Shown: piece by piece, positions 20,004 through 48,998 of the stretch | Layout: every line of letters begins with the position of its first letter | Numbering within the stretch: position 1 is the stretch's first letter | Source of the DNA: a phage | Sequence record: PZ445411.1 | Strand: one strand, 5' to 3' | DNA: 51,129 nucleotides | Made by a program: the position numbers and the translations under genes | The notes under the pieces: model-generated | Told to the model about the DNA's origin: nothing | The model's input: only the letters and a program-made list of their open reading frames with translations | Database searches by the model: none

Positions 20004-20231
20004 TTACAGACTGCAATCAGCGTTTTTAAAGTTATCAATGCTTACCCACTGAAAATTAAACGGATAGCCAGCCTTAACAATAGTGCGGTCGCCAACTCGT
20101 TTTACTCCAAAAATAGCAACTGAATACTGCATACCGCTATTTTCATAAATAGCCGTGCATTCACGCTTAGGCATATTTGCACATCCAGTCAGTGTAACGG
20201 TTGCAATCAAAACGGCGATTAACTTTTTCAT
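20004..20231 (-). CDS. lipoprotein, Llp-like superinfection-exclusion candidate
   Basis: 75 aa; signal peptide with lipobox LTGC; overall pattern resembles T5 Llp as I recall it; RBS AAGGAG. Confidence 0.5.
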   Translation of the reverse strand: MKKLIAVLIATVTLTGCANMPKRECTAIYENSGMQYSVAIFGVKRVGDRTIVKAGYPFNFQWVSIDNFKNADCSL

Positions 20232-20262
20232 GTTGGTATCTCCTTAGTTGTTGTTGGTTGCA

Positions 20263-20304
20263 ACTATACACGATCTTGCGGTGGGCGTTTAGCAAAAAGT
20301 GCTA
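20263..20304 (-). promoter_or_regulatory. conserved box variant + TATAGT cassette upstream of Llp-like lipoprotein gene (minus strand)
   Basis: Minus strand TAGCACTTTTTGCTAAAC, 20 nt, TATAGT, then RBS AAGGAG and ATG 20231. Confidence 0.45.
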
Positions 20305-20415
20305 TTCTGTTCCTTTTGTTCTCCGGTGTTCTCAAATCTGCGGAGGCTTAAATTTAGCTCAAAAAGTGAACAGTAATAGAGCGCTATACATACGAATAAA
20401 TATATATACATACAT

Positions 20416-20455
20416 ATAAATCAATAAGTTAGTGGTATATATATTTATATTTGTT
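20416..20455. repeat. conserved AT-rich segment, copy A (partner at 42248-42288)
   Basis: ATAAATCAATAAGTTAGTGGTATATATATTTATATTTGTT; about 90% identical to copy B; followed by GT-rich degenerate repeats to about 20540. Confidence 0.6.
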
Positions 20456-20675
20456 TTTTCTTGTTATCTATGTTTTGTGTGATTTTGTGTGTCTGGTGAT
20501 TTTTATGTGGTTGTGTATGTGTCAGTGTTTGTGTGCGTCTATATATCTATATCCGTCGCAAATGTAGGAACAAGAGAACAAAAAGACAACAAAGATATTT
20601 ATCAATCACTTACATGTAAATTTTGTTATCCGATTCGTCAGGAACGTTGTTAGAACAGAAAAAACAAAATAACTG

Positions 20676-20703
20676 TTGACTAAACGCATTAAATAGCTAA
20701 AAT
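20676..20703 (+). promoter_or_regulatory. sigma70-like promoter for the rightward recombination module
   Basis: TTGACT (20676-20681), 16-nt spacer, TAAAAT (20698-20703); 30 nt upstream of the exonuclease ATG. Confidence 0.5.
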
Positions 20704-20732
20704 GCAGGTATACCAACTAATGAGGGCAAATC

Positions 20733-29172: not shown

Positions 29173-29214
29173 TAGCATTTTTTGTTAAACGATGATTTAA
29201 TGATTGTGTATTAT
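29173..29214 (+). promoter_or_regulatory. conserved box + -10-like hexamer (promoter-like cassette) upstream of helicase gene
   Basis: TAGCATTTTTTGTTAAAC, 21 nt, TATTAT (29209-29214); in divergent intergenic region. Confidence 0.45.
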
Positions 29215-29247
29215 ACACGCCAAATGGCATTACTCAAAGGTTTTAGA

Positions 29248-31287
29248 ATGATTCCAAACATTGAAAAGCAAATATCAGCACTTGGTGAAGCGGTAATTAA
29301 ATCCATACAGGATCGATTCACTGTTGGCGATATTGTTCCTTACCCTTACCAGTGCGTTGCATACGCTGAGATCGCAAAGCGTATGAAAAATTATGAGCAT
29401 CCATTCTTTGTTAAAGCGTCCGTATCGGCTGGCAAAACATTGATGTTTGCAATGGTTGCTCACCAGTGCCGGAAAATGGGGTTAAAAATGATGGTCCTTG
29501 CTCGCCAGGCTGAGATTGTGGATCAGGATTCTGAAGAGATAACAAATCTTGGCGTGCCGAACTCAATCTATTGTGCAGGACTGAAGACAAAAAGCGCATA
29601 CTTTCCGATTGTTGTTGGTTCTGAGGGCACTGTAGTTAATGGGCTGTTTAAAGCGCTTGGCGACTATGTTCCGCACGTTATCGGGATTGACGAGTGTCAC
29701 CAGGTGGATTGGGAAGACCTTGCCGACGCCATAGAGAAAGACGAATCATTTTTACAAATGACAACGAAGAAAGGCGAAAAAGTACCAAATCCAGATTATG
29801 ACATAACGAGCGATAACGAATGCGAAGAGTTCCTGATTGGTGAGGATGGCTTACCAATGGAGGGAACAGGCCGCACGCAATACACTGTCATTATCATGGA
29901 AATGATGCGACGTTGCAGGAAAGCATATGGTCATGAACTGCGCATCTTTGGTATGACTGGTTCGGAGTTTCGCGGAGTAGTCCCGATCCTGGTAGAAGAC
30001 AAAAAACAGAAAGGATTCTGGCGTGAACAGGTTACTAATATTGACACCAACTACCTGATCAAATTCGGTTCTGTTGTGCCAACAAATTTTGGCGACGTTG
30101 GCGATCTAGGGTATGACCTTTCAGAGTTTGAGGCATCCAGCGAGGATGGCGTTGCAGACTTTGACGCTAAAACGCTTCGCAGGATGGAACAAAAAATTCA
30201 TGAAGAAGCTACCATGACAAAGCGCATCATGGAGAAAGTGCACGAGATCTGTAAAAACCGTAACGGCGTACTTGTGACATGCGCAGGAGAAAGGCACTGT
30301 AAAGAGGCAGCGGCAGCGTTGCCACCTGGAACGACTTACAGGATCATTACTGGTAAGACTGGCGATAACCAGCGCAAGGAGTGGTTGAAGGAAGCATACG
30401 AAGGGAAGGTAAAATACATATTCCAGGTGCAGGCGCTAACAACTGGCGTTAACGTTCCGTTTTGGGATACATCTGTCATTCTGCGCAAGATTGGATCGCT
30501 AACTTTGCTGATTCAGCTTTTAGGTCGCGGAATGCGACTACTTAAGAAGTGGCATAAGGAGCAAGGATTCAAGAAAGATGATCACCTCGTTATGGATTTT
30601 TCAGGAACGATGGATGAGTTAGGGGAGCTTTATTTTGATCCGATACTGGAGCAGGCGCAACATCAGAAGCGATTCAGGAACGGTAAAGATCCGAAGCCGT
30701 GCCCTATTTGCGGAACTCTTAACAGCTATTATGCTCGTCGTTGTATGCACGTAGACGAAAACGGAAACAGATGTGAGTGGTTCTTTAAATTCAGGACATG
30801 TGATGATCAGATTGACCCGCGCACTAAAAAGATTATTCAGCGCGGTTGCGGAACGAAGAATGATATTGCGGCCAGGGTATGCAGACATTGCGACATGTCA
30901 TTGATTGACCCTAACGAGAAGTTGAGCGGAAAGCACTACACAAAAAATGACTGGTTCAAGGTGCAATCTTTCTCGGTTGACATGACGAAAAACCAGAAAG
31001 GGATAATATTTAATTATGAGCTTTCCGATGGCATAGACACTTTCAGGGCGAGAGAGATATTTTTCCCTGAATCTGAGAGCCAAATTTGCCGCGCAAAATG
31101 GCGAAGCGTTGCTCTTAAGCACATACCGGATCGCCGTGTTGCTGGCATGGTGGCGAGCTATCGTAATGCACGAAAAATAATGCAATATGTGAATCACATC
31201 ATGCCACCATCGCGTGTGACTCACCGCAAGACTAGCAAGGGAGAAGATAATTTGTACAAGAAGGAGTTTAATTATGGCAATGACTGA
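29248..31287 (+). CDS. SF2 DEAD/DEAH-type helicase
   Basis: Walker A SVSAGKT, DECH box, motif VI QLLGRGMR; C-terminal Cys clusters; start chosen at 29248 (RBS AAAGG) rather than the track start 29182. Confidence 0.75.
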   Translation: MIPNIEKQISALGEAVIKSIQDRFTVGDIVPYPYQCVAYAEIAKRMKNYEHPFFVKASVSAGKTLMFAMVAHQCRKMGLKMMVLARQAEIVDQDSEEITNLGVPNSIYCAGLKTKSAYFPIVVGSEGTVVNGLFKALGDYVPHVIGIDECHQVDWEDLADAIEKDESFLQMTTKKGEKVPNPDYDITSDNECEEFLIGEDGLPMEGTGRTQYTVIIMEMMRRCRKAYGHELRIFGMTGSEFRGVVPILVEDKKQKGFWREQVTNIDTNYLIKFGSVVPTNFGDVGDLGYDLSEFEASSEDGVADFDAKTLRRMEQKIHEEATMTKRIMEKVHEICKNRNGVLVTCAGERHCKEAAAALPPGTTYRIITGKTGDNQRKEWLKEAYEGKVKYIFQVQALTTGVNVPFWDTSVILRKIGSLTLLIQLLGRGMRLLKKWHKEQGFKKDDHLVMDFSGTMDELGELYFDPILEQAQHQKRFRNGKDPKPCPICGTLNSYYARRCMHVDENGNRCEWFFKFRTCDDQIDPRTKKIIQRGCGTKNDIAARVCRHCDMSLIDPNEKLSGKHYTKNDWFKVQSFSVDMTKNQKGIIFNYELSDGIDTFRAREIFFPESESQICRAKWRSVALKHIPDRRVAGMVASYRNARKIMQYVNHIMPPSRVTHRKTSKGEDNLYKKEFNYGND

Positions 31288-36189: not shown

Positions 36190-37773
36190 TTACCCCAGCA
36201 ATGTTGGATTTACGAAAACAACGCCATTAATCACACAAATATAATTTCTTTCTTCAAGCATCGGCAGCAGTTGCGTTTCCATACGCTTCATTACGCCAGC
36301 CTGACCAACAAACGGCTTAACTTTTCGTGCTGCCTCATATATGGCGCGCACATTCAGGATTCCCTTATTAGCCTTGCCGTGTCGAGTGATTATCTCGATT
36401 AGTTTACCCATTTCAGCATCATCACCAGCGTAGCCAGAAGCGTTGGCGGCGCTAATGTATGTTTTGCTCAACTCGCTAAACATCAACAATGCTTCCTGAA
36501 CGGTTTCAACCTCAATCTCTTTCGACTTCTGAGGGTATCCGCCAGGATTAAACCAATTTCGGATAGTGTGCAAAACCGAAGCAATCCTGATCACCTGCTT
36601 ATCCATTTTGCCAAGAGCGCCGCGCAGCATTGTATGCGAATACTTTCCGCCATCAGCAAGGTGCGGCTCCATCTCCTGACGAGCCATGTTAAGAACTCGC
36701 ATTGCTGATTTGCTGATCTTAAGCTGGATGTTTGATTCACTCATGATGTTATGGATCAGCTTGAAATATTGGCTTTTCAGTTCCCCATCAACAGGCTCAT
36801 AAGTAGAATCACCGTTATCATCAACAAACTTTCTACGGCCTAAAAATGATTCCTCACGCACAAGCAAATAACGCTCACTTACACCGATACCGCGCGATCC
36901 TGCATCCATGATGGCATTGATTGTTTCATCCTGGGCAATTACCGCCATACAGCCAAGAGCTTTAAAACTCATATTGTTGTCAGCGTTTGCACGAGCTATA
37001 GAAACATGACCATGATCCCATGCTTTTAGCACAAGTTCGCTGTTGGTTTTACGTTCGCTATTGGCATATGTCAGACCTAAAAGGCTGTTAATACTTGTTG
37101 CCTCGTCTGAAATCACAGCAAAGTTACCCTGGCGATTGTTGATTCTTGCAAGTCCTTCCGGCGTTGTGTCGGACACAGGGAAAACGATGTCACACATCTT
37201 TTCCAGTTTTTCTTCCAGATCTTCTTTCTCCTGGTACAGAGACTCCATATCAGCGCCGGAGCGCTCGCTTTTCATCTCTTTTGCAAGACCTGCCAACTTT
37301 GCCTGAATCTTTTTTCTTTCCTTCTTTCGCTGATCATTAATTCTTTCCACTTCAGCAACCATAGGAGCAAGTGCCAGGCTGTTAACGGCAGATTTACCAG
37401 TTGATGGAGGCTGGCTTGTGACAACGTAAAGAGCGGTTGGTTGATCCGTTCCGTGATACTCAACCGTGAAGCGTCCAAGCATTGCAGCAGATACACAGCC
37501 GATAAAATGCATATATGCCGATGATTCAGGGAATTGAACAGATCGAGCAATGTTTCGCGCCAACTTTCCAACAACATCAACATCATTGCCAAGAGAAATT
37601 ACAGGGTAGCGATCGTTTCCGTTATTAACATCATTAACCTCACCCCAAAAGCTGGACGATTGACGGTATCCGTTAGCCTGAATGGACACGCGCACCGGAG
37701 ACAATCCTTGTGCATCAGCTAATTCGATAATTTGTTTTGGTGTTAGTTTATTGGTTTCAAACGAAAAATTCAT
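36190..37773 (-). CDS. primase/helicase-like replication protein (P-loop)
   Basis: 527 aa from ATG 37773 (RBS AAAGGAG); the longer track start 37827 would overlap a conserved box; P-loop-like SQPPSTGKSA. Confidence 0.5.
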   Translation of the reverse strand: MNFSFETNKLTPKQIIELADAQGLSPVRVSIQANGYRQSSSFWGEVNDVNNGNDRYPVISLGNDVDVVGKLARNIARSVQFPESSAYMHFIGCVSAAMLGRFTVEYHGTDQPTALYVVTSQPPSTGKSAVNSLALAPMVAEVERINDQRKKERKKIQAKLAGLAKEMKSERSGADMESLYQEKEDLEEKLEKMCDIVFPVSDTTPEGLARINNRQGNFAVISDEATSINSLLGLTYANSERKTNSELVLKAWDHGHVSIARANADNNMSFKALGCMAVIAQDETINAIMDAGSRGIGVSERYLLVREESFLGRRKFVDDNGDSTYEPVDGELKSQYFKLIHNIMSESNIQLKISKSAMRVLNMARQEMEPHLADGGKYSHTMLRGALGKMDKQVIRIASVLHTIRNWFNPGGYPQKSKEIEVETVQEALLMFSELSKTYISAANASGYAGDDAEMGKLIEIITRHGKANKGILNVRAIYEAARKVKPFVGQAGVMKRMETQLLPMLEERNYICVINGVVFVNPTLLG

Positions 37774-37800
37774 TGATGATAACTCCTTTTTGATGCGGCA

Positions 37801-37843
37801 ATAATACCGCACCAATGCTACCCGCATTTAACAAAAAATGCTA
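37801..37843 (-). promoter_or_regulatory. conserved box + TATTAT cassette (minus strand)
   Basis: Minus strand TAGCATTTTTTGTTAAATG (TAG is the stop of gene 37841-38062), 22 nt, TATTAT; upstream of primase/helicase-like gene. Confidence 0.5.
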
Positions 37844-41872: not shown

Positions 41873-41911
41873 TTTACTGTCTCCTGATGGGTATCTCGTT
41901 TCGATGTGTCT

Positions 41912-41954
41912 AATGTACCCGATCAGGCGGATTCAGTTTTAACAAAAAGTGCTA
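41912..41954 (-). promoter_or_regulatory. conserved box + TACATT cassette (minus strand)
   Basis: Minus strand TAGCACTTTTTGTTAAAAC, 22 nt, TACATT; lies in the 3' end of ORF 41923-42210. Confidence 0.45.
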
Positions 41955-42210
41955 TTTGCTGACTGGTCATTATTCCATCTATTCCATTAATCAGGAATAA
42001 CAGGAATAACTCATTCTCGATCACCTGGATTGTGAGACTTTGAGTTTGATCAATTTTAATCAGGTGATTAACTTTTTGTGTGGAGGGGATAGAGAAACAC
42101 GGCCCTCTTGCATCCTTTCCTGCAATCATGGCGCGCGCATCTGTTATTTCTGTTCTCCGTGTTATCTCAAATAAGCCTCCGCACTTTGAGATAACAGAAA
42201 CGGCGTTCAT
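41923..42210 (-). CDS. hypothetical protein (first gene of the leftward block; start uncertain)
   Basis: Open frame ends at 41923; no convincing RBS for ATG 42210 or 42249; a conserved box lies in its 3' end where it encodes IALFVKT. Confidence 0.3.
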   Translation of the reverse strand: MNAVSVISKCGGLFEITRRTEITDARAMIAGKDARGPCFSIPSTQKVNHLIKIDQTQSLTIQVIENELFLLFLINGIDGIMTSQQIALFVKTESA

Positions 42211-42247
42211 CAACAAAAAGAACAAAATAAAATTTATATATATACCC

Positions 42248-42288
42248 ATAAAATCAATAAGTTAGTTATATATGTATTTATATTTGTT
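42248..42288. repeat. conserved AT-rich segment, copy B (partner at 20416-20455)
   Basis: ATAAAATCAATAAGTTAGTTATATATGTATTTATATTTGTT; followed by GT-rich degenerate repeats to about 42420. Confidence 0.6.
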
Positions 42289-42544
42289 ATTTACTGTTGA
42301 GCTTGTTCTATGGGTATATGGTGGTGTGGTATTGTTTGTGGTGATATGTATGTGTGATTGTATATTTTTTAATCAATGGTGATGTGTGGTGATTTTTGTA
42401 TGTATATATATGGGTATGGAGCAATCCTCCGTCAACCAAGTAAACAATGTCATTTTTAACAGAAAAACCAATGACTTAACTGAAGCATTTTGTTATCTTT
42501 AAACGCGCCACGTGCCAAAAATTGTTATTAAAACACAAAATATA

Positions 42545-42574
42545 TTGACATGTAGGAAAGGCAAGGCAATAATG
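42545..42574 (+). promoter_or_regulatory. strong sigma70-like early promoter for the rightward small-gene block
   Basis: Consensus -35 TTGACA (42545-42550), 17-18 nt spacer, -10 ATAAT around 42568-42574; 36 nt upstream of ATG 42610. Confidence 0.55.
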
Positions 42575-42609
42575 CATCCAGTTCAAACGCAACAAAAGGA
42601 GTAGACGCC

Positions 42610-43095
42610 ATGAATGAAGAAAATGTTAGTTCTATGTCGCGTAGTGAGTTCTGCGATATGCTTCGCAGCCTGGGCGCGGCAATTGGTAGCGGCGAGCGTA
42701 ACAATGTATTCATGCCAGCACTTTTCTTGTGCGCTAACGTGGAGAACGGCGACGCAATTACAGCATCGTACATGCGCCAGGTGGTAAACCGTGTGCCAGA
42801 AGTAAAGCAAAAAGGCGTGATCAGCATTAAGCGAAAGGTGACTGATGAGGGTGATGGCTTTGTGTTTACGCTCACTGAAGCCAAAAGCAAGCCTCGCGTT
42901 CTGACTGGTGAAGAAATCGACGAGATCGCAGAAAAGCGCGCAGAGAAGGCGGTAAGCAAAATTCTTAATCACCTGGTAAACGTAATGCCAAATATCACAG
43001 ACATGGAAGGCGACAAACTTGCTGGAGCGTGTGAGGCTATCGGGCGCTACCAGGATATGATTCGTAAACTCGCTGGAGGAAAAGAGGATGAATAA
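42610..43095 (+). CDS. hypothetical protein (first rightward early gene)
   Basis: 161 aa; RBS AAAGGAG; 36 nt downstream of a near-consensus promoter. Confidence 0.55.
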   Translation: MNEENVSSMSRSEFCDMLRSLGAAIGSGERNNVFMPALFLCANVENGDAITASYMRQVVNRVPEVKQKGVISIKRKVTDEGDGFVFTLTEAKSKPRVLTGEEIDEIAEKRAEKAVSKILNHLVNVMPNITDMEGDKLAGACEAIGRYQDMIRKLAGGKEDE

Positions 43096-43348
43096 GGCAT
43101 TAATTGGAGTTTTGATTGCAATTGCTACCCTGACCGGATGCGAAAAGGCATCTGAATCAACAGTTGTCGTAGGAGTTGAGTCAGATTTCAAAGTCGGTCG
43201 CCTGTTCACTGTTGACGGATGCACGGCATACCGATTCTATGACAACGGTCGAGCAATCTATTACACCAATTGCAAGGGCGCAACGGATAGCACATACCGC
43301 ATCGGCAAAAACGTAATGCACCAACAAGTCACAACAGATATTAAATAG
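43088..43348 (+). CDS. lipoprotein
   Basis: 86 aa; signal peptide with lipobox LTGC; three further Cys; stop TAG is the start of a conserved box. Confidence 0.55.
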   Translation: MNKALIGVLIAIATLTGCEKASESTVVVGVESDFKVGRLFTVDGCTAYRFYDNGRAIYYTNCKGATDSTYRIGKNVMHQQVTTDIK

Positions 43349-48741: not shown

Positions 48742-48773
48742 GTCCTCATTGAAGCGAAACAGAGGAAAGCGCA

Positions 48774-48998
48774 ATGAAAATTCGAATTACCAATATTGAA
48801 TCAGTTAGCCAGTTTGATACTGACGAATTAAGCCTTGGGCAGTGTGGGATCGAGGTTGGCGATGTGTTCGAAGTTACCGGACAATATCGCGATGGAACTT
48901 TGAGCATTCAAGCACCACGAGATACCGATGATGGTTGCATCAAGGCAGGAGATGAGTTTAGCGTTAACGAAGGAGAATACGAGGTAGTAGAAGAATGA
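48774..48998 (+). CDS. hypothetical acidic protein
   Basis: 74 aa; RBS AGAGGAAA. Confidence 0.5.
   Translation: MKIRITNIESVSQFDTDELSLGQCGIEVGDVFEVTGQYRDGTLSIQAPRDTDDGCIKAGDEFSVNEGEYEVVEE

What the first reader, a model, noticed from the sequence alone, without database searches (positions are those of the whole stretch)
20340..20720. AT/GT-rich non-coding region at the first divergent strand switch, homologous to a second region at 42.2-42.6 kb
About 500 bp without plausible ORFs between the minus-strand lipoprotein gene and the plus-strand exonuclease gene. It shares a roughly 40-bp segment (ATAAATCAATAAGTTAGT...TATTTATATTTGTT, 20416-20455) at about 90% identity with 42248-42288. Both are followed by GT-rich degenerate repeats (TGTGTGATTTTGT, GGTGATTTTTATGTGG) and both later contain TGTAGGAA and TTTTGTTATC. 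A duplicated regulatory region at both divergent points could be a pair of bidirectional early promoter regions, iteron-like origin sequences, or binding arrays for a host or phage factor.
Basis: seen in the sequence. Interest (0 to 1): 0.55.

Follow-up and report, generated by a model that had tools for sequence, protein, structure and literature searches.

The report
Twin origin-like regions of T1-like phage
This T1-like phage carries two related non-coding regions, each holding the genome's easiest-to-melt DNA upstream of an early promoter; all relatives examined keep both copies, which makes them the best candidates for the still-unknown T1 replication origins, though a purely transcriptional role is nearly as likely.

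Summary
The window is a complete T1-like phage genome (Drexlerviridae, Hanrivervirus).

- **The duplication.** The 501-bp gap 20232-20732 and the gap 41873-42609 share a collinear, direct-orientation block. Its local alignment score is 66, against 20-22 ± 4 for composition-preserving shuffles.
- **The module.** Each copy holds phased TGTT-type words, then a (TA)n inverted-repeat core around a perfect IHF consensus, then more TGTT words. A G+T-rich spacer, AACA-type words and a second IHF-like site follow. The exact 10-mer TTTTGTTATC, an A-rich stretch and a sigma-70 promoter complete it.
- **Physical extremes.** The two cores are the two least stable duplex segments of the genome.
- **Family-wide.** The same holds in six genomes from four subfamilies, each with significant similarity between its two copies.
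- **What did not hold.** The G+T "repeats" are lineage-specific and evolve near neutrally. TGTAGGAA is a chance match. The module is not tied to divergent transcription (see phage TLS).
- **Verdict.** Most likely an origin-type unwinding and assembly site coupled to an early promoter, like SPP1 oriL/oriR (about 0.4). A purely transcriptional upstream region is the close rival (about 0.33). No initiator protein was identified.
- **In passing.** The unexplained 21-nt repeat of T1-like phages fits the MarA/SoxS/Rob marbox in class II promoter geometry.

The parts
20287..20305 (-). 21-nt-repeat (marbox-like) promoter box of the Cor-like lipoprotein gene. A -10-like TATAGT lies at 20263-20268. This is the left border of copy 1, not part of the shared block.
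   Evidence: Matches 14 of 14 specified positions of AYnGCACnnWnnRYYAAAY, with TATAGT 18 nt downstream. Within the genus it is 0.989 identical.
20308..20333 (+). Left array of copy 1: TGTTCC, TGTTCTC, TGTTCTC at 20308, 20317 and 20327 (spacing 9 and 10 bp).
   Evidence: Word map. TTTTGTT and GTTC are invariant or nearly so across Tempevirinae relatives. It forms an inverted repeat with 20574-20586 (I9).
20339..20373 (+). TGCGGAGGCTT (20339-20349), the reverse complement of the 11-mer at the same relative place in copy 2, followed by an opposite-facing GTGAACAG (20366-20373).
   Evidence: Sequence read directly. Alignments A1.
20395..20455 (.). AT core of copy 1, one of the two least stable duplex segments of the genome. 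It has two (TA)n-rich inverted arms (20396-20409 and 20435-20448, 14 nt, perfect).
   Evidence: Stability z = 5.1 against 3.1 for the next best segment. Inverted repeat I6. Within the genus it is 0.948 identical, against 0.868 at recE third codon positions.
20419..20431 (+). IHF consensus site 1 (AATCAATAAGTTA), in the 25-nt spacer between the arms.
   Evidence: Perfect WATCAANNNNTTR match. The genome has 8 such matches against 4.1 ± 2 expected, and 3 of the 8 lie in these two gaps. In relatives the N positions vary while the consensus positions are kept.
20451..20477 (+). Second TGTT-type array of copy 1 (20451/2, 20461/2 and 20471; spacing about 10 and 9 bp).
   Evidence: TTGTT is invariant in the 12-sequence alignment.
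20466..20540 (+). G+T-rich spacer with alternating purines and pyrimidines.
   Evidence: Highest keto skew in the genome (0.74 per 70 nt). Lineage-specific and weakly conserved.
20540..20563 (+). Third TA run plus CCGTCGCAAAT (CCGGCGTAAAT in relatives).
   Evidence: Conserved columns. Rtp has the analogous repeat CCGCGGAAA.
20567..20594 (+). AACA-type array of copy 1 (GGAACAAGAGAACAAAAAGACAACAAAG).
   Evidence: Within the genus 0.971 identical. Conserved across Tempevirinae. Tandem Repeats Finder reports an 11-nt period.
20600..20612 (+). IHF consensus site 2 (TATCAATCACTTA).
   Evidence: Perfect consensus match. ATCA....CTTA is conserved across Tempevirinae while the N positions vary.
20621..20630 (+). 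TTTTGTTATC.
   Evidence: Only two copies in the genome, at collinear positions in the two blocks. TTTTGTT is conserved in relatives.
20640..20675 (+). A-rich stretch with AACA words directly upstream of the -35 element, resembling an UP element.
   Evidence: The resemblance to an UP element is my inference.
20676..20703 (+). Sigma-70-type promoter of the recE-erf-ssb operon (TTGACT-16-TAAAAT).
   Evidence: TTGAC-N16-18-TAnnWT is present in 42 of 45 related loci. It equals P51 of phage TLS.
41937..41955 (-). 21-nt-repeat (marbox-like) promoter box for the leftward early genes, at the left end of gap 2.
41970..42009 (.). Palindromic element TTATTCC..TATTCC / GGAATAA..GGAATAA, specific to gap 2.
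   Evidence: (I6). Also present in T1.
42031..42040 (+). Position that aligns with base 1 of the TLS and T1 records, which is where those authors place the pac site. It lies outside the duplicated block.
   Evidence: Alignment. TLS paper. T1 repeat_region 1-2800. SU57 paper.
42142..42166 (+). Left array of copy 2: TGTTATT, TGTTCTC, TGTTATC at 42142, 42151 and 42160 (spacing 9 and 9 bp).
   Evidence: Aligns with 20308-20333.
42160..42196 (.). Perfect 12-nt inverted repeat with a 13-nt loop holding AAGCCTCCGCA (42173-42183), inverted relative to copy 1.
   Evidence: I12. Sequence read.
42217..42292 (.). AT core of copy 2, the other least stable segment of the genome. Inverted arms at 42217-42242 and 42267-42292.
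   Evidence: I1.
42252..42264 (+). IHF consensus site 1 of copy 2 (AATCAATAAGTTA), in the 24-nt spacer between the arms.
42284..42338 (+). Second TGTT-type array of copy 2 (42284/5, 42303/4 and 42332).
42296..42402 (+). G+T-rich spacer of copy 2, longer than in copy 1.
   Evidence: Keto skew 0.66, second highest in the genome.
42441..42478 (+). AACA-type words (42441 and 42456) and an IHF-like site 2 (AACCAATGACTTA, 42466-42478, one mismatch).
   Evidence: Sequence read. Aligned with copy 1.
42488..42497 (+). TTTTGTTATC of copy 2.
42545..42573 (+). Sigma-70-type rightward early promoter (TTGACA-17-AATAAT) for the DUF7174 gene at 42610.
   Evidence: It equals P01 of phage TLS. Pfam match of the downstream gene.

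Best explanation
The region is one of two paralogous copies of a non-coding control module of about 370-400 bp that T1-like phages (Drexlerviridae) keep.

**Anatomy, left to right**
1. Three TGTT-type words phased 9-10 bp apart.
2. One or two opposite-facing AACA-type words.
3. A core of two (TA)n-rich inverted arms around a perfect IHF consensus site. This core is the most easily melted DNA in the genome.
4. Three more TGTT-type words.
5. A flexible G+T-rich spacer.
6. AACA-type words.
7. A second IHF-type site.
8. TTTTGTTATC.
9. An A-rich, UP-like stretch.
10. A sigma-70 early promoter firing away from the core.

**Proposed mechanism**
I read the module as an origin-type DNA-unwinding and nucleoprotein-assembly site coupled to an early promoter.
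- IHF bends the core in this lineage.
- The flanking word arrays bind a protein that is not yet identified.
- Negative supercoiling left behind the outward-transcribing RNA polymerase melts the TA core.
- The phage helicase and P4-alpha-type primase can then load there.
- The two copies would behave like SPP1 oriL and oriR: either two initiation sites, or one initiation site plus a second site just upstream of recE-erf-ssb that feeds recombination-dependent concatemer synthesis.

**Shown here:** the duplication, its conservation across the family, the physical extremes, the consensus matches and the promoters.

**Inferred:** IHF binding, occupancy of the arrays, melting, and replication initiation.
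For: 1. **Real paralogy, retained across the family.**
   - Direct-orientation similarity between the two copies exceeds all 200 block shuffles in six genomes from four subfamilies.
   - Observed score against shuffle maximum: window 66 vs 34, PeterMerian 53 vs 37, TLS 38 vs 25, T1 35 vs 25, Rtp 83 vs 21, Rogue1 46 vs 20.
   - The two cores lie 18-22 kb apart in every genome.
2. **The two least stable segments.** In all six genomes the two least stable 80-bp duplex segments are exactly these two regions. Their z scores are 4.4-6.2, against 2.8-3.6 for the next best segment. TATATA is strongly confined to them: 11 of 18 genome copies here and 15 of 22 in T1.
3. **Fixed position.** In 44 of 45 related loci the least stable segment is centred 278-355 nt upstream of recE.
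4. **Same syntax in both copies.** The order and orientation of the words are identical in the two blocks, and the first triplet is phased 9-10 bp. AGAACA and ATAACA are enriched (p about 5e-8 and 4e-7). GAACA density is the highest in the genome.
5. **IHF sites.** There are perfect consensus sites at 20419, 20600 and 42252. The first lies in the spacer between the inverted arms in both copies.
6. **Purifying selection.** Gap 1 is 0.915 identical within the genus, against 0.868 at recE third codon positions. The core is 0.948 and the AACA array 0.971.
[quoted passage not shown] SPP1 has two similarly organised origins with repeats plus an AT-rich unwinding element (PMC6316719).
8. **No origin known in this family.** The TLS and SU57 papers looked for an origin in T1-like phages and found none.
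9. **Not a by-product of divergent transcription.** In TLS, copy 1 follows a co-directional gene and its terminator.
Against: - No initiator protein was identified.
  - The primase matches only the N-terminal primase part of P4 alpha.
  - Neither the DUF3987 helicase nor the 157-aa HTH protein resembles the helicase or DNA-binding domain of P4 alpha.
  - The HTH protein folds as a Cro/XRE-type single HTH.
- There are no DnaA boxes in the blocks.
- The repeated words are short and degenerate. They differ between lineages and even between paralogues: AGAACA/ATAACA here, GTGAAC in TLS, GTTACA and CGATTA in T1, TCCGCGG in Rtp.
- The strict IHF consensus is not family-wide. It is absent from both T1 copies, both Rogue1 copies, TLS copy 1 and PeterMerian copy 2.
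- The conserved distance from core to promoter, and the fact that the two copies sit upstream of two of only three sigma-70 promoters, fit a transcriptional role equally well.
- Neither copy is next to the primase or helicase genes (27.7-31.3 kb and 36.2-37.8 kb).
- No replication data exist for any T1-like phage in the literature I could search.
Confidence: 0.4

Rival explanations
1. **A purely transcriptional control region.** The block is the upstream architectural and regulatory region of two of the phage's three host-type early promoters. It would combine IHF bends, A-tract or UP-like DNA and operator arrays for a phage regulator such as the Cro-like 157-aa protein. It would tune or shut off early transcription and play no part in replication.
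For: - Both copies end in strong sigma-70 promoters.
- TLS has only three such intergenic promoters, and two of them are these.
- AACA words and A-tracts run right up to the -35 element.
- The distance from core to recE is conserved in 44 of 45 loci.
- A conserved Cro-type HTH protein is made from the third sigma-70 promoter.
Against: - About 350 bp of conserved architecture is large for an upstream promoter element.
- The third sigma-70 promoter works without any such block.
- The most conserved and most extreme feature, the TA core, lies 240-290 bp from the -35 element.
- The Cro-like protein is 46-99% conserved across the family, whereas the enriched words change between lineages.
- The distance from core to promoter differs between the two paralogues.
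Confidence: 0.33
2. **A start site for recombination or replication restart.** The cruciform-prone (TA)n inverted repeats are broken or processed. The ends are then used by RecE, Erf and SSB, whose genes follow copy 1, to start recombination-dependent replication and concatemer formation.
For: - The core has perfect 14-nt AT-rich inverted arms, and the region has the highest purine/pyrimidine alternation in the genome.
- An 11-nt hairpin loop is inverted between the paralogues, a signature of hairpin-mediated template switching.
- Copy 1 is directly upstream of recE-erf-ssb in every genome examined.
- SPP1 offers a precedent for an oriR-triggered switch to recombination-dependent replication.
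Against: - No structure-specific nuclease has been linked to the sites.
- (TA)n tracts are self-complementary by nature, so the inverted arms may be incidental.
- There is no experimental evidence.
Confidence: 0.1
3. **A packaging signal.** The block is the terminase recognition site (pac), built like IHF-assisted cosB or P1 pac, and copy 1 is a secondary or vestigial pac site.
For: - The T1, TLS, Rtp and Rogue1 records all open about 200 bp to the left of the copy-2 AT core.
- pac was mapped to this gap by restriction analysis or read coverage.
- Short repeats flanking an IHF site is also a known packaging-site architecture (my own knowledge of lambda cosB and P1 pac).
Against: - The position aligned to base 1 of the T1 and TLS records (about 42031-42040) lies in the part specific to gap 2, outside the shared block.
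- Gap 1 has no counterpart of that part.
- A single pac fragment is reported for TLS.
Confidence: 0.07
4. **No specific function, or a hidden gene.** The similarity reflects AT-rich compositional drift or gene conversion between two spacers. Alternatively, the region encodes a small RNA or peptide.
For: - The G+T-rich part evolves almost neutrally.
- Rtp's paralogues are about 80% identical over 160 nt, which suggests gene conversion.
Against: - The alignment scores far exceed composition-preserving shuffles in six genomes.
- The module syntax and its position are conserved across the family.
- There is no Rfam match.
- RNA folding z scores are -0.9 on the plus strand and -2.1 on the minus strand.
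- Only composition-driven mini-ORFs without a ribosome-binding site are present (read).
Confidence: 0.05

Closest known systems
Bacillus phage SPP1 oriL / oriR
   Same: A lytic, pac-type siphovirus with two similarly organised origin sequences, each made of direct repeats plus an AT-rich unwinding element, kilobases apart. One lies in a long intergenic region. A 5'-3' exonuclease, an annealase and an SSB act in the later switch to concatemer synthesis (PMC6316719).
   Different: SPP1 has a defined origin-binding protein (gp38), and oriL lies inside its gene. No initiator is identified here, and both copies are intergenic and fused to sigma-70 promoters. I did not compare the sequences directly; the resemblance is architectural only.
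Iteron-flanked AT-rich origins of E. coli PICIs and P4-type satellites (P4 ori plus crr)
   Same: Sets of short repeats flank an AT-rich putative melting site (PMC6092414). P4 needs two cis regions, ori and crr, both carrying TGTTCACC repeats. The phage primase here is homologous to the primase part of P4 alpha (E = 2e-12). GTGAACAG at 20366 and GTGAACA in TLS resemble the P4 repeat.
   Different: Only one GTGAACA lies in copy 1 and none in copy 2. No homologue of the P4 alpha helicase or DNA-binding domain was found. The words here are shorter (5-7 nt) and vary between lineages.
IHF-centred nucleoprotein sites (lambda cosB, P1 pac and parS, lambda attP, pSC101 and R6K origins)
   Same: An IHF consensus site sits between arrays of short protein-binding words. 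The expected role is to bend the DNA so that flanking sites come together (my own knowledge of these systems).
   Different: No integrase or ParB is annotated in the related records I examined. The pac-equivalent position lies outside the block. The IHF consensus is lineage-specific within the family.
Promoter-associated origins of T7 (phi1.1A/B plus an AT-rich region) and T4 (oriF, oriG)
   Same: A strong phage promoter next to an AT-rich unwinding element, with no dedicated iteron-binding initiator (my own knowledge).
   Different: In T7 and T4 the unwinding element lies downstream of the promoter and is transcribed. Here it lies 240-290 bp upstream, so any activation would have to act through upstream negative supercoiling, not through an R-loop.

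Membership tests
Theta-type replication origin with unwinding element and repeats | An AT-rich DNA-unwinding element of exceptionally low duplex stability | tested here: met
   The two cores rank first and second in the genome for 80-bp and 150-bp windows (z = 5.1 against 3.1 for the next). The same holds in five other genomes.
Theta-type replication origin with unwinding element and repeats | Arrays of repeated short sequences flanking the unwinding element | tested here: inconclusive
   TGTT/AACA-type words are enriched and phased, with the same order and orientation in both copies. They are only 5-7 nt long, degenerate and lineage-variable.
Theta-type replication origin with unwinding element and repeats | A cognate origin-binding initiator | tested here: not met
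   None recognised. Pfam on the replication genes and early genes gives a primase, an SF2 helicase, a DUF3987 helicase, a VRR-NUC protein and a Cro-like HTH protein. The HTH protein is Cro/XRE-like by fold.
Theta-type replication origin with unwinding element and repeats | Replication actually starts there | not testable with these tools
   This needs marker-frequency sequencing, 2D gels or plasmid amplification assays.
DnaA-dependent origin | Clustered DnaA boxes (TTATNCACA) | tested here: not met
   No box with one mismatch or fewer in gap 1. One in gap 2, and it lies outside the block.
IHF binding site | A match to WATCAANNNNTTR with an AT-rich 5' flank | tested here: met
   Perfect matches at 20419, 20600 and 42252. 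The genome has 8 against 4.1 ± 2 expected, and 3 of the 8 lie in 2.4% of the genome. The flanks are (TA)n-rich.
IHF binding site | Conservation of the consensus positions in relatives | tested here: inconclusive
   The consensus is kept, with varying N positions, in Hanrivervirus-like and Warwickvirus loci and in Rtp copy 1. It is absent from T1, Rogue1, TLS copy 1 and PeterMerian copy 2.
IHF binding site | IHF binds and bends the DNA | not testable with these tools
   This needs EMSA or footprinting, and efficiency of plating on ihfA/ihfB hosts.
P4 ori/crr | Multiple TGTTCACC type-1 repeats in two cis regions | tested here: not met
   The P4 repeats were confirmed from its record. The window has one GTGAACA in copy 1 and none in copy 2.
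P4 ori/crr | An alpha protein combining primase, helicase and an origin-binding domain | tested here: not met
   Only the primase part is homologous. BLASTP finds no match for the other parts.
pac site | Coincides with the mapped start of packaging | tested here: not met
   Base 1 of the T1 and TLS records aligns to about 42031-42040, about 100 nt to the left of the shared block. Gap 1 has no counterpart. The physical ends of this particular phage are unknown.
Sigma-70 promoter | -35 and -10 hexamers with a 16-18 nt spacer, conserved in relatives | tested here: met
   10 of 12 and 11 of 12 hexamer matches. Conserved in 42 of 45 loci. Listed as P51 and P01 for TLS.
Structured non-coding RNA | An Rfam match or significant, conserved folding | tested here: not met
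   No Rfam hit at gathering threshold. Folding z scores are -0.9 and -2.1. The G+T tract is not conserved in sequence.
Class II marbox promoter (for the flanking 21-nt repeats, not the block) | A match to AYnGCACnnWnnRYYAAAY, oriented toward the gene and centred near -41 | tested here: met
   16-21 sites with at least 13 of 14 matches per genome, against about 1 expected. A -10-like hexamer follows 18-19 nt after the box. The consensus and the -41 position come from PMC3709825 and PMC8811837. Binding by MarA, SoxS or Rob has not been tested.

The most novel reading that the evidence does not exclude
The two modules are the long-sought replication origins of T1 and all Drexlerviridae, and they fire without a classical iteron-binding initiator. 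Supercoiling from the adjacent early promoters, helped by IHF in some lineages, would melt a cruciform-prone (TA)n core so that the phage helicase and P4-type primase can load. The copy upstream of recE-erf-ssb would double as the site that switches replication to recombination-dependent concatemer synthesis, as proposed for SPP1 oriR.
Probability: 0.2. Interest if true: 0.72.

Novelty: new member of a known kind. Interest (0 to 1): 0.55.

Why it matters
T1 is one of the seven classical T phages, and its relatives are common laboratory contaminants and candidates for phage therapy. Even so, no replication origin has been mapped for any of them. Recent genome papers on TLS and SU57 state that they found none.

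This analysis turns a vague "AT-rich gap" into a precisely mapped module that is conserved across the family and present in two copies. It holds the two most meltable sites of every genome examined. That gives defined targets for marker-frequency mapping, deletions, IHF footprinting and plasmid amplification tests.

Even if the module proves purely transcriptional, it defines the control regions of two of the only three host-type promoters of these phages.

The side observation suggests how most of the remaining genes are transcribed: the family's unexplained 21-nt repeats look like class II MarA/SoxS/Rob-type promoters. That question was explicitly listed as open in 2024.

Tried and rejected
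- **GC skew.** The cumulative skew simply follows gene orientation and says nothing about an origin.
- **Rfam and tRNA scans.** Nothing found.
- **RNA folding of the block.** Not significant on the plus strand. The marginal z of -2.1 on the minus strand comes from pairing of the TGTT arrays with the AACA arrays, which reflects DNA-level inverted symmetry.
- **Tandem Repeats Finder.** Only two-copy mini-repeats, so these are not classical tandem iterons.
- **DnaA boxes and GATC clustering.** Absent from the blocks.
- **P4 alpha as the array binder.** The P4 iteron TGTTCACC resembles GTGAACA here, but only the primase domain is shared and the word is rare in the blocks.
- **A MarA/SoxS homologue in the phage.** None by tblastn (best E = 1-2).
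- **Copies of gap 2 through its first gene.** The DUF7174 protein search returned only two close loci, so I used full records of T1, TLS, PeterMerian, Rtp and Rogue1 instead.
- **The block in plasmids.** No match.
- **Co-variation of words between the T1 and TLS groups as proof of a phage-encoded binder.** Dropped, because T1's GTAACA is the same flavour as ATAACA in copy 2 of this phage.
- **Literature on T1 origins, early promoters or IHF dependence.** Nothing relevant in the searchable library. The 2004 T1 genome paper is not held.
- **Record start positions as evidence of physical ends in gap 1** (phages BEK26 and BEC3). Not pursued, because contig breaks in (TA)n DNA are an equally likely cause.
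Full report
**What the window is**

The 51,129-bp window is a complete T1-like phage genome. Both intergenic regions match Hanrivervirus phages (Drexlerviridae, Tempevirinae) such as slyngel, ESh4, egaa, herni and KarlJaspers at 90-98% identity. Gene order follows T1:
- terminase, then the head and tail genes;
- a small minus-strand lipoprotein gene at 20004-20231, in the position of T1's Cor gene;
- exonuclease VIII (recE), erf and ssb from 20733;
- primase, helicases and lysis genes;
- a block of small leftward early genes, and after 42610 a block of small rightward early genes.

**Check of the observation**

The gap 20232-20732 is 501 bp long and has no credible ORF.

The exact 15-mer AATCAATAAGTTAGT and the exact 14-mer TATTTATATTTGTT occur only at these two places in the genome.

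A collinear, direct-orientation local alignment runs from 20306 to 20528 against 42139 to 42361.
- It scores 66.
- Dinucleotide shuffles give 13.3 ± 1.8.
- Shuffles within 30-nt blocks, which keep regional composition, give 22 ± 4.6 with a maximum of 39.
- The reverse-complement score is only 31.
- The gaps share 61 exact 8-mers, against 13 ± 5 expected.

Low-complexity bias therefore does not explain the match.

Of the shorter shared words, TTTTGTTATC is real: there are only two copies in the genome, they are collinear, and the word is conserved in relatives. TGTAGGAA is chance: it occurs three times in the genome, at a non-collinear offset, and in copy 2 it lies inside a promoter spacer.

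**The second gap is larger than it looks**

ORF 41923-42249 is annotated as a 71-aa CDS in KarlJaspers. Its variable sites split 11, 9, 10 over the three codon positions. The flanking genes give 2, 1, 18 and 31, 20, 67. A 21-nt-repeat promoter box also lies inside it, and the homologous DNA is non-coding in PeterMerian, TLS and T1. The real gap is 41873-42609.

Its left part is specific to this gap. It holds a palindromic GGAATAA element (41970-42009) and a GATT/TGAG-rich stretch, and it is homologous to the corresponding DNA of PeterMerian, T1, TLS and Rtp. Window positions of about 42031-42040 align with base 1 of the TLS record, which is the authors' pac assignment. The same positions lie as far from the palindrome as base 1 of the T1 record, whose first 2,800 bp are annotated as the terminal repeat. 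The SU57 paper likewise places the genome end in this untranslated region. The packaging start is therefore probably in the gap-2-specific part, about 100 nt to the left of the duplicated block.

**Anatomy of the duplicated module**

The two blocks have the same parts in the same order. Coordinates are in window numbering.

| Part | Copy 1 | Copy 2 |
|---|---|---|
| Three TGTT-type words, 9-10 bp apart | 20308, 20317, 20327 | 42142, 42151, 42160 |
| Small hairpin region; its 11-nt loop is inverted between the copies | TGCGGAGGCTT, 20339-20349 | AAGCCTCCGCA, 42173-42183 |
| Opposite-facing AACA-type words | GTGAACAG, 20366 | 42191, 42219 |
| AT core: two (TA)n-rich inverted arms | 20396-20409 / 20435-20448 (perfect 14-mers) | 42217-42242 / 42267-42292 |
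| Perfect IHF consensus AATCAATAAGTTA in the 24-25-nt spacer | 20419 | 42252 |
| Three more TGTT-type words | 20451, 20461, 20471 | 42284, 42303, 42332 |
| G+T-rich, purine/pyrimidine-alternating spacer | about 70 nt | about 110 nt |
| Third TA run plus a CCG-C/GCAAAT-type motif | 20540-20563 | about 42403-42438 |
| AACA-type words | 20567-20594 | 42441, 42456 |
| Second IHF-type site | TATCAATCACTTA, 20600 (perfect) | AACCAATGACTTA, 42466 (one mismatch) |
| TTTTGTTATC | 20621 | 42488 |
| A-rich stretch with AACA words | 20640-20675 | about 42518-42544 |
| Sigma-70-type promoter | TTGACT-16-TAAAAT, 20676-20703 | TTGACA-17-AATAAT, 42545-42573 |

Written as arrows, the word map is ">>> < core >>> spacer << > > <" in both copies.

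**Physical extremes**

Using nearest-neighbour energies, the two cores are the first and second least stable 80-bp and 150-bp segments of the whole genome (z = 5.1 each, against 3.1 for the next). The adjacent tracts have the first and second highest G+T skew. The blocks also have the first and second highest purine/pyrimidine alternation over 200 bp. Of the 18 TATATA hexamers in the genome, 11 lie in these 760 nt.

**Conservation across the family**

I examined complete records of PeterMerian (Warwickvirus), TLS (Tlsvirus), T1 (Tunavirinae), Rtp (Braunvirinae) and Rogue1 (Rogunavirinae).
- In every one, the two least stable 80-bp segments of the genome are the region upstream of the recE operon and the early/pac gap. 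Their z scores are 4.4-6.2, against 2.8-3.6 for the next best segment.
- In every one, the two regions resemble each other in direct orientation beyond all 200 block shuffles.
- The cores lie 18-22 kb apart in all six genomes.
- Orthologues are more alike than paralogues. Window copy 1 against PeterMerian copy 1 scores 209, while window copy 1 against window copy 2 scores 65. The duplication therefore predates these genera.
- In Rtp the paralogues are about 80% identical over 160 nt, which suggests gene conversion or strong shared constraint.
- In 44 of 45 related loci fetched from viral contigs (recE protein 62-99% identical), the least stable segment is centred 278-355 nt upstream of the recE start. 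The recE promoter is present in 42 of them.
- Within Hanrivervirus, gap 1 is 0.915 identical to the window, against 0.868 for recE third codon positions. The peaks are the 21-nt repeat (0.989), the AACA array (0.971), the promoter (0.949) and the AT/IHF core (0.948). The G+T tract is near the neutral level at 0.898.

**What is not universal**

- The G+T-rich tract exists only in Hanrivervirus and Warwickvirus and is weak in TLS.
- The strict IHF consensus in the core is present in both window copies, PeterMerian copy 1 and Rtp copy 1. It has one mismatch in TLS copy 2 and Rtp copy 2. It is absent from both T1 copies, both Rogue1 copies, TLS copy 1 and PeterMerian copy 2.
- The enriched non-AT words differ by lineage: AGAACA and ATAACA here and in PeterMerian, GTGAAC and GAACAA in TLS, GTTACA (copy 1) and CGATTA (copy 2) in T1, TCCGCGG in Rtp.
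- The universal part is the bipartite (TA)n core with a TTAG-type centre, together with the overall layout.

**Transcriptional context**

The TLS paper found only three sigma-70-like intergenic promoters: P01, P51 and P57. In this window they correspond to 42545-42573, 20676-20703 and a minus-strand promoter at 29210-29237 (TTGAGT-16-TATAAT). That third promoter drives a 157-aa HTH protein and the primase, whose gene overlaps it.
- The duplicated block thus precedes two of the three host-type promoters, while the third has no such block.
- The leftward genes beside both blocks use 21-nt-repeat promoters that lie outside the block (boxes 20287-20305 and 41937-41955).
- In TLS, copy 1 follows the co-directional tail gene J and its terminator. 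The module is therefore not a by-product of divergent transcription.

**Interpretation**

The layout matches the standard anatomy of phage and satellite origins: short repeats on both sides of an AT-rich, easily melted core, with a bending-protein site.
- SPP1: two similarly organised origins, oriL and oriR, each with direct repeats plus an AT-rich unwinding element. oriR is proposed to trigger the switch to concatemer synthesis through an exonuclease, an annealase and an SSB.
- Here, copy 1 sits directly upstream of exactly such a gene trio.
- No origin is known for any T1-like phage, and two recent papers looked and found none.

My best explanation is an origin-type unwinding and assembly site coupled to an early promoter. 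IHF would bend the core in this lineage, and negative supercoiling behind the outward-firing promoter would help to melt it. I give this 0.4.

Several points count against it.
- No initiator was found. The primase matches only the primase part of P4 alpha. The DUF3987 helicase and the HTH protein do not match the other parts of P4 alpha. The HTH protein is a Cro/XRE-type fold.
- There are no DnaA boxes.
- The words are short and variable.
- The replication genes are not adjacent.
- The fixed distance from core to promoter fits a transcriptional role just as well.

The rivals are as follows.
- A purely transcriptional upstream region: 0.33.
- A recombination start site at the cruciform-prone core: 0.10. 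The inverted 11-nt hairpin loop between the paralogues hints that hairpins form in vivo.
- A packaging signal: 0.07. The pac-equivalent position lies outside the block.
- No function or a hidden gene: 0.05.

**Comparison with P4**

The P4 record confirms TGTTCACC repeats in both ori and crr. GTGAACAG at 20366 and GTGAACA in TLS resemble this repeat, and the primase is P4-alpha-like. However, the word is rare in the blocks (one copy in copy 1, none in copy 2), and the DNA-binding domain of alpha is missing. This region is therefore not a member of the P4 ori/crr family. The parallel is only that two cis regions are involved.

**Side finding: the 21-nt repeat looks like a marbox**

The TLS paper lists the 21-nt intergenic repeat of T1-like phages (aaATAGCACnnnTTGnTAAAA) as an open question. 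It fits the MarA/SoxS/Rob marbox AYnGCACnnWnnRYYAAAY, a consensus quoted in PMC3709825.
- The window has 20 sites matching at least 13 of the 14 specified positions, against 1.5-1.7 expected. PeterMerian has 18, TLS 21, T1 21 and Rtp 16, each against about 1 expected.
- Eighteen of the window's sites are copies of the repeat, and all point toward the downstream gene.
- A -10-like hexamer follows 18-19 nt after the box in nearly all sites. This centres the box near -40/-41, the class II position reported for RamA at micF.
- No MarA/SoxS homologue is encoded in the window.
- No paper in the searchable library links "marbox" with T1-like phages.
- These phages therefore appear to run on three sigma-70 promoters plus about 18 activator-type class II promoters. 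The activator could be host Rob, MarA or SoxS, or an unrelated phage protein. This is untested.

**Verdict**

The feature is a real control module, conserved across the family and present in two copies. Its kind is known, but it had not been described in the T1-like literature I could search. Its most likely role, as a replication origin, is inferred and not shown. It offers precise, testable targets for a long-open question about a classical phage.

Noticed in passing
window, about 18 sites, e.g. 1566+, 5841-, 9600-, 20305-, 21795+, 29172+, 31690+, 32710+, 37844-, 38520-, 39919-, 41077-, 41955-, 43345+, 43808+, 44857+, 47353+, 48698+ (first base of the 19-nt box on the named strand): The 21-nt intergenic repeat of T1-like phages, listed as unexplained in the 2024 TLS paper, fits the MarA/SoxS/Rob marbox AYnGCACnnWnnRYYAAAY at 13-14 of 14 specified positions. 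It always points toward the downstream gene, and a -10-like hexamer follows 18-19 nt later, which is class II geometry with the box centred near -41. The window has 20 such matches against 1.5-1.7 expected. T1, TLS, PeterMerian and Rtp have 16-21 each. The phage encodes no MarA/SoxS homologue, and no paper in the library links marbox with T1-like phages.
   Followed up: partly
window 41923-42249: An ORF annotated as a 71-aa hypothetical CDS in phage KarlJaspers shows no codon-position bias in its substitutions (11, 9, 10, against 2, 1, 18 and 31, 20, 67 in its neighbours). It also contains a promoter box. It is most likely non-coding, which widens the second gap to 41873-42609.
   Followed up: yes
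window about 42031-42040; L005 (T1) 1; L006 (TLS) 1; L056 (Rtp) 1; L057 (Rogue1) 1: The window position aligned with base 1 of the TLS and T1 records (the authors' pac) lies about 100 nt to the left of the duplicated block. In the T1, TLS, Rtp and Rogue1 records the least stable segment starts at base 196-216, so all four records open about 200 bp to the left of the copy-2 AT core.
   Followed up: partly
window 41970-42009: A conserved palindromic element (TTATTCC..TATTCC / GGAATAA..GGAATAA, with a tandem CAGGAATAA x2) lies between the leftward promoter box and the pac-equivalent position. It is also present in T1 at about 48760-48800. It might be a terminase or regulator binding site.
   Followed up: partly
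window 20339-20349 versus 42173-42183: The 11-mer TGCGGAGGCTT in copy 1 is the exact reverse complement of AAGCCTCCGCA at the same relative place in copy 2, where it forms the loop of a perfect 12-bp hairpin (42160-42171 / 42185-42196). This is the signature of a hairpin-loop inversion by template switching.
   Followed up: partly
[not shown]
   Followed up: partly
window 20176-20222 versus 43100-43146: A 47-nt inverted match (79% complementary) links the 5' end of the Cor-like lipoprotein gene with the start of the 86-aa early gene at 43088-43348. They probably share a lipoprotein signal-peptide sequence (I5).
   Followed up: no
public records MG065636-MG065687 (hits H10-H18, H25-H26 and others): Eighteen GenBank records named "Campylobacter phage A1xx" (host Campylobacter jejuni) are 92-93% identical to this coliphage-type intergenic region. 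They look like Hanrivervirus coliphages, and their host labels may be wrong.
   Followed up: no
window 36190-37827 (minus) and 29182-31287 (plus): The phage carries two helicases. One has a DUF3987 domain (E = 2e-43). The other is an SF2 helicase (ResIII and Helicase_C domains) followed by a VRR-NUC protein. Which of them, if either, is the replicative helicase is not evident.
   Followed up: no
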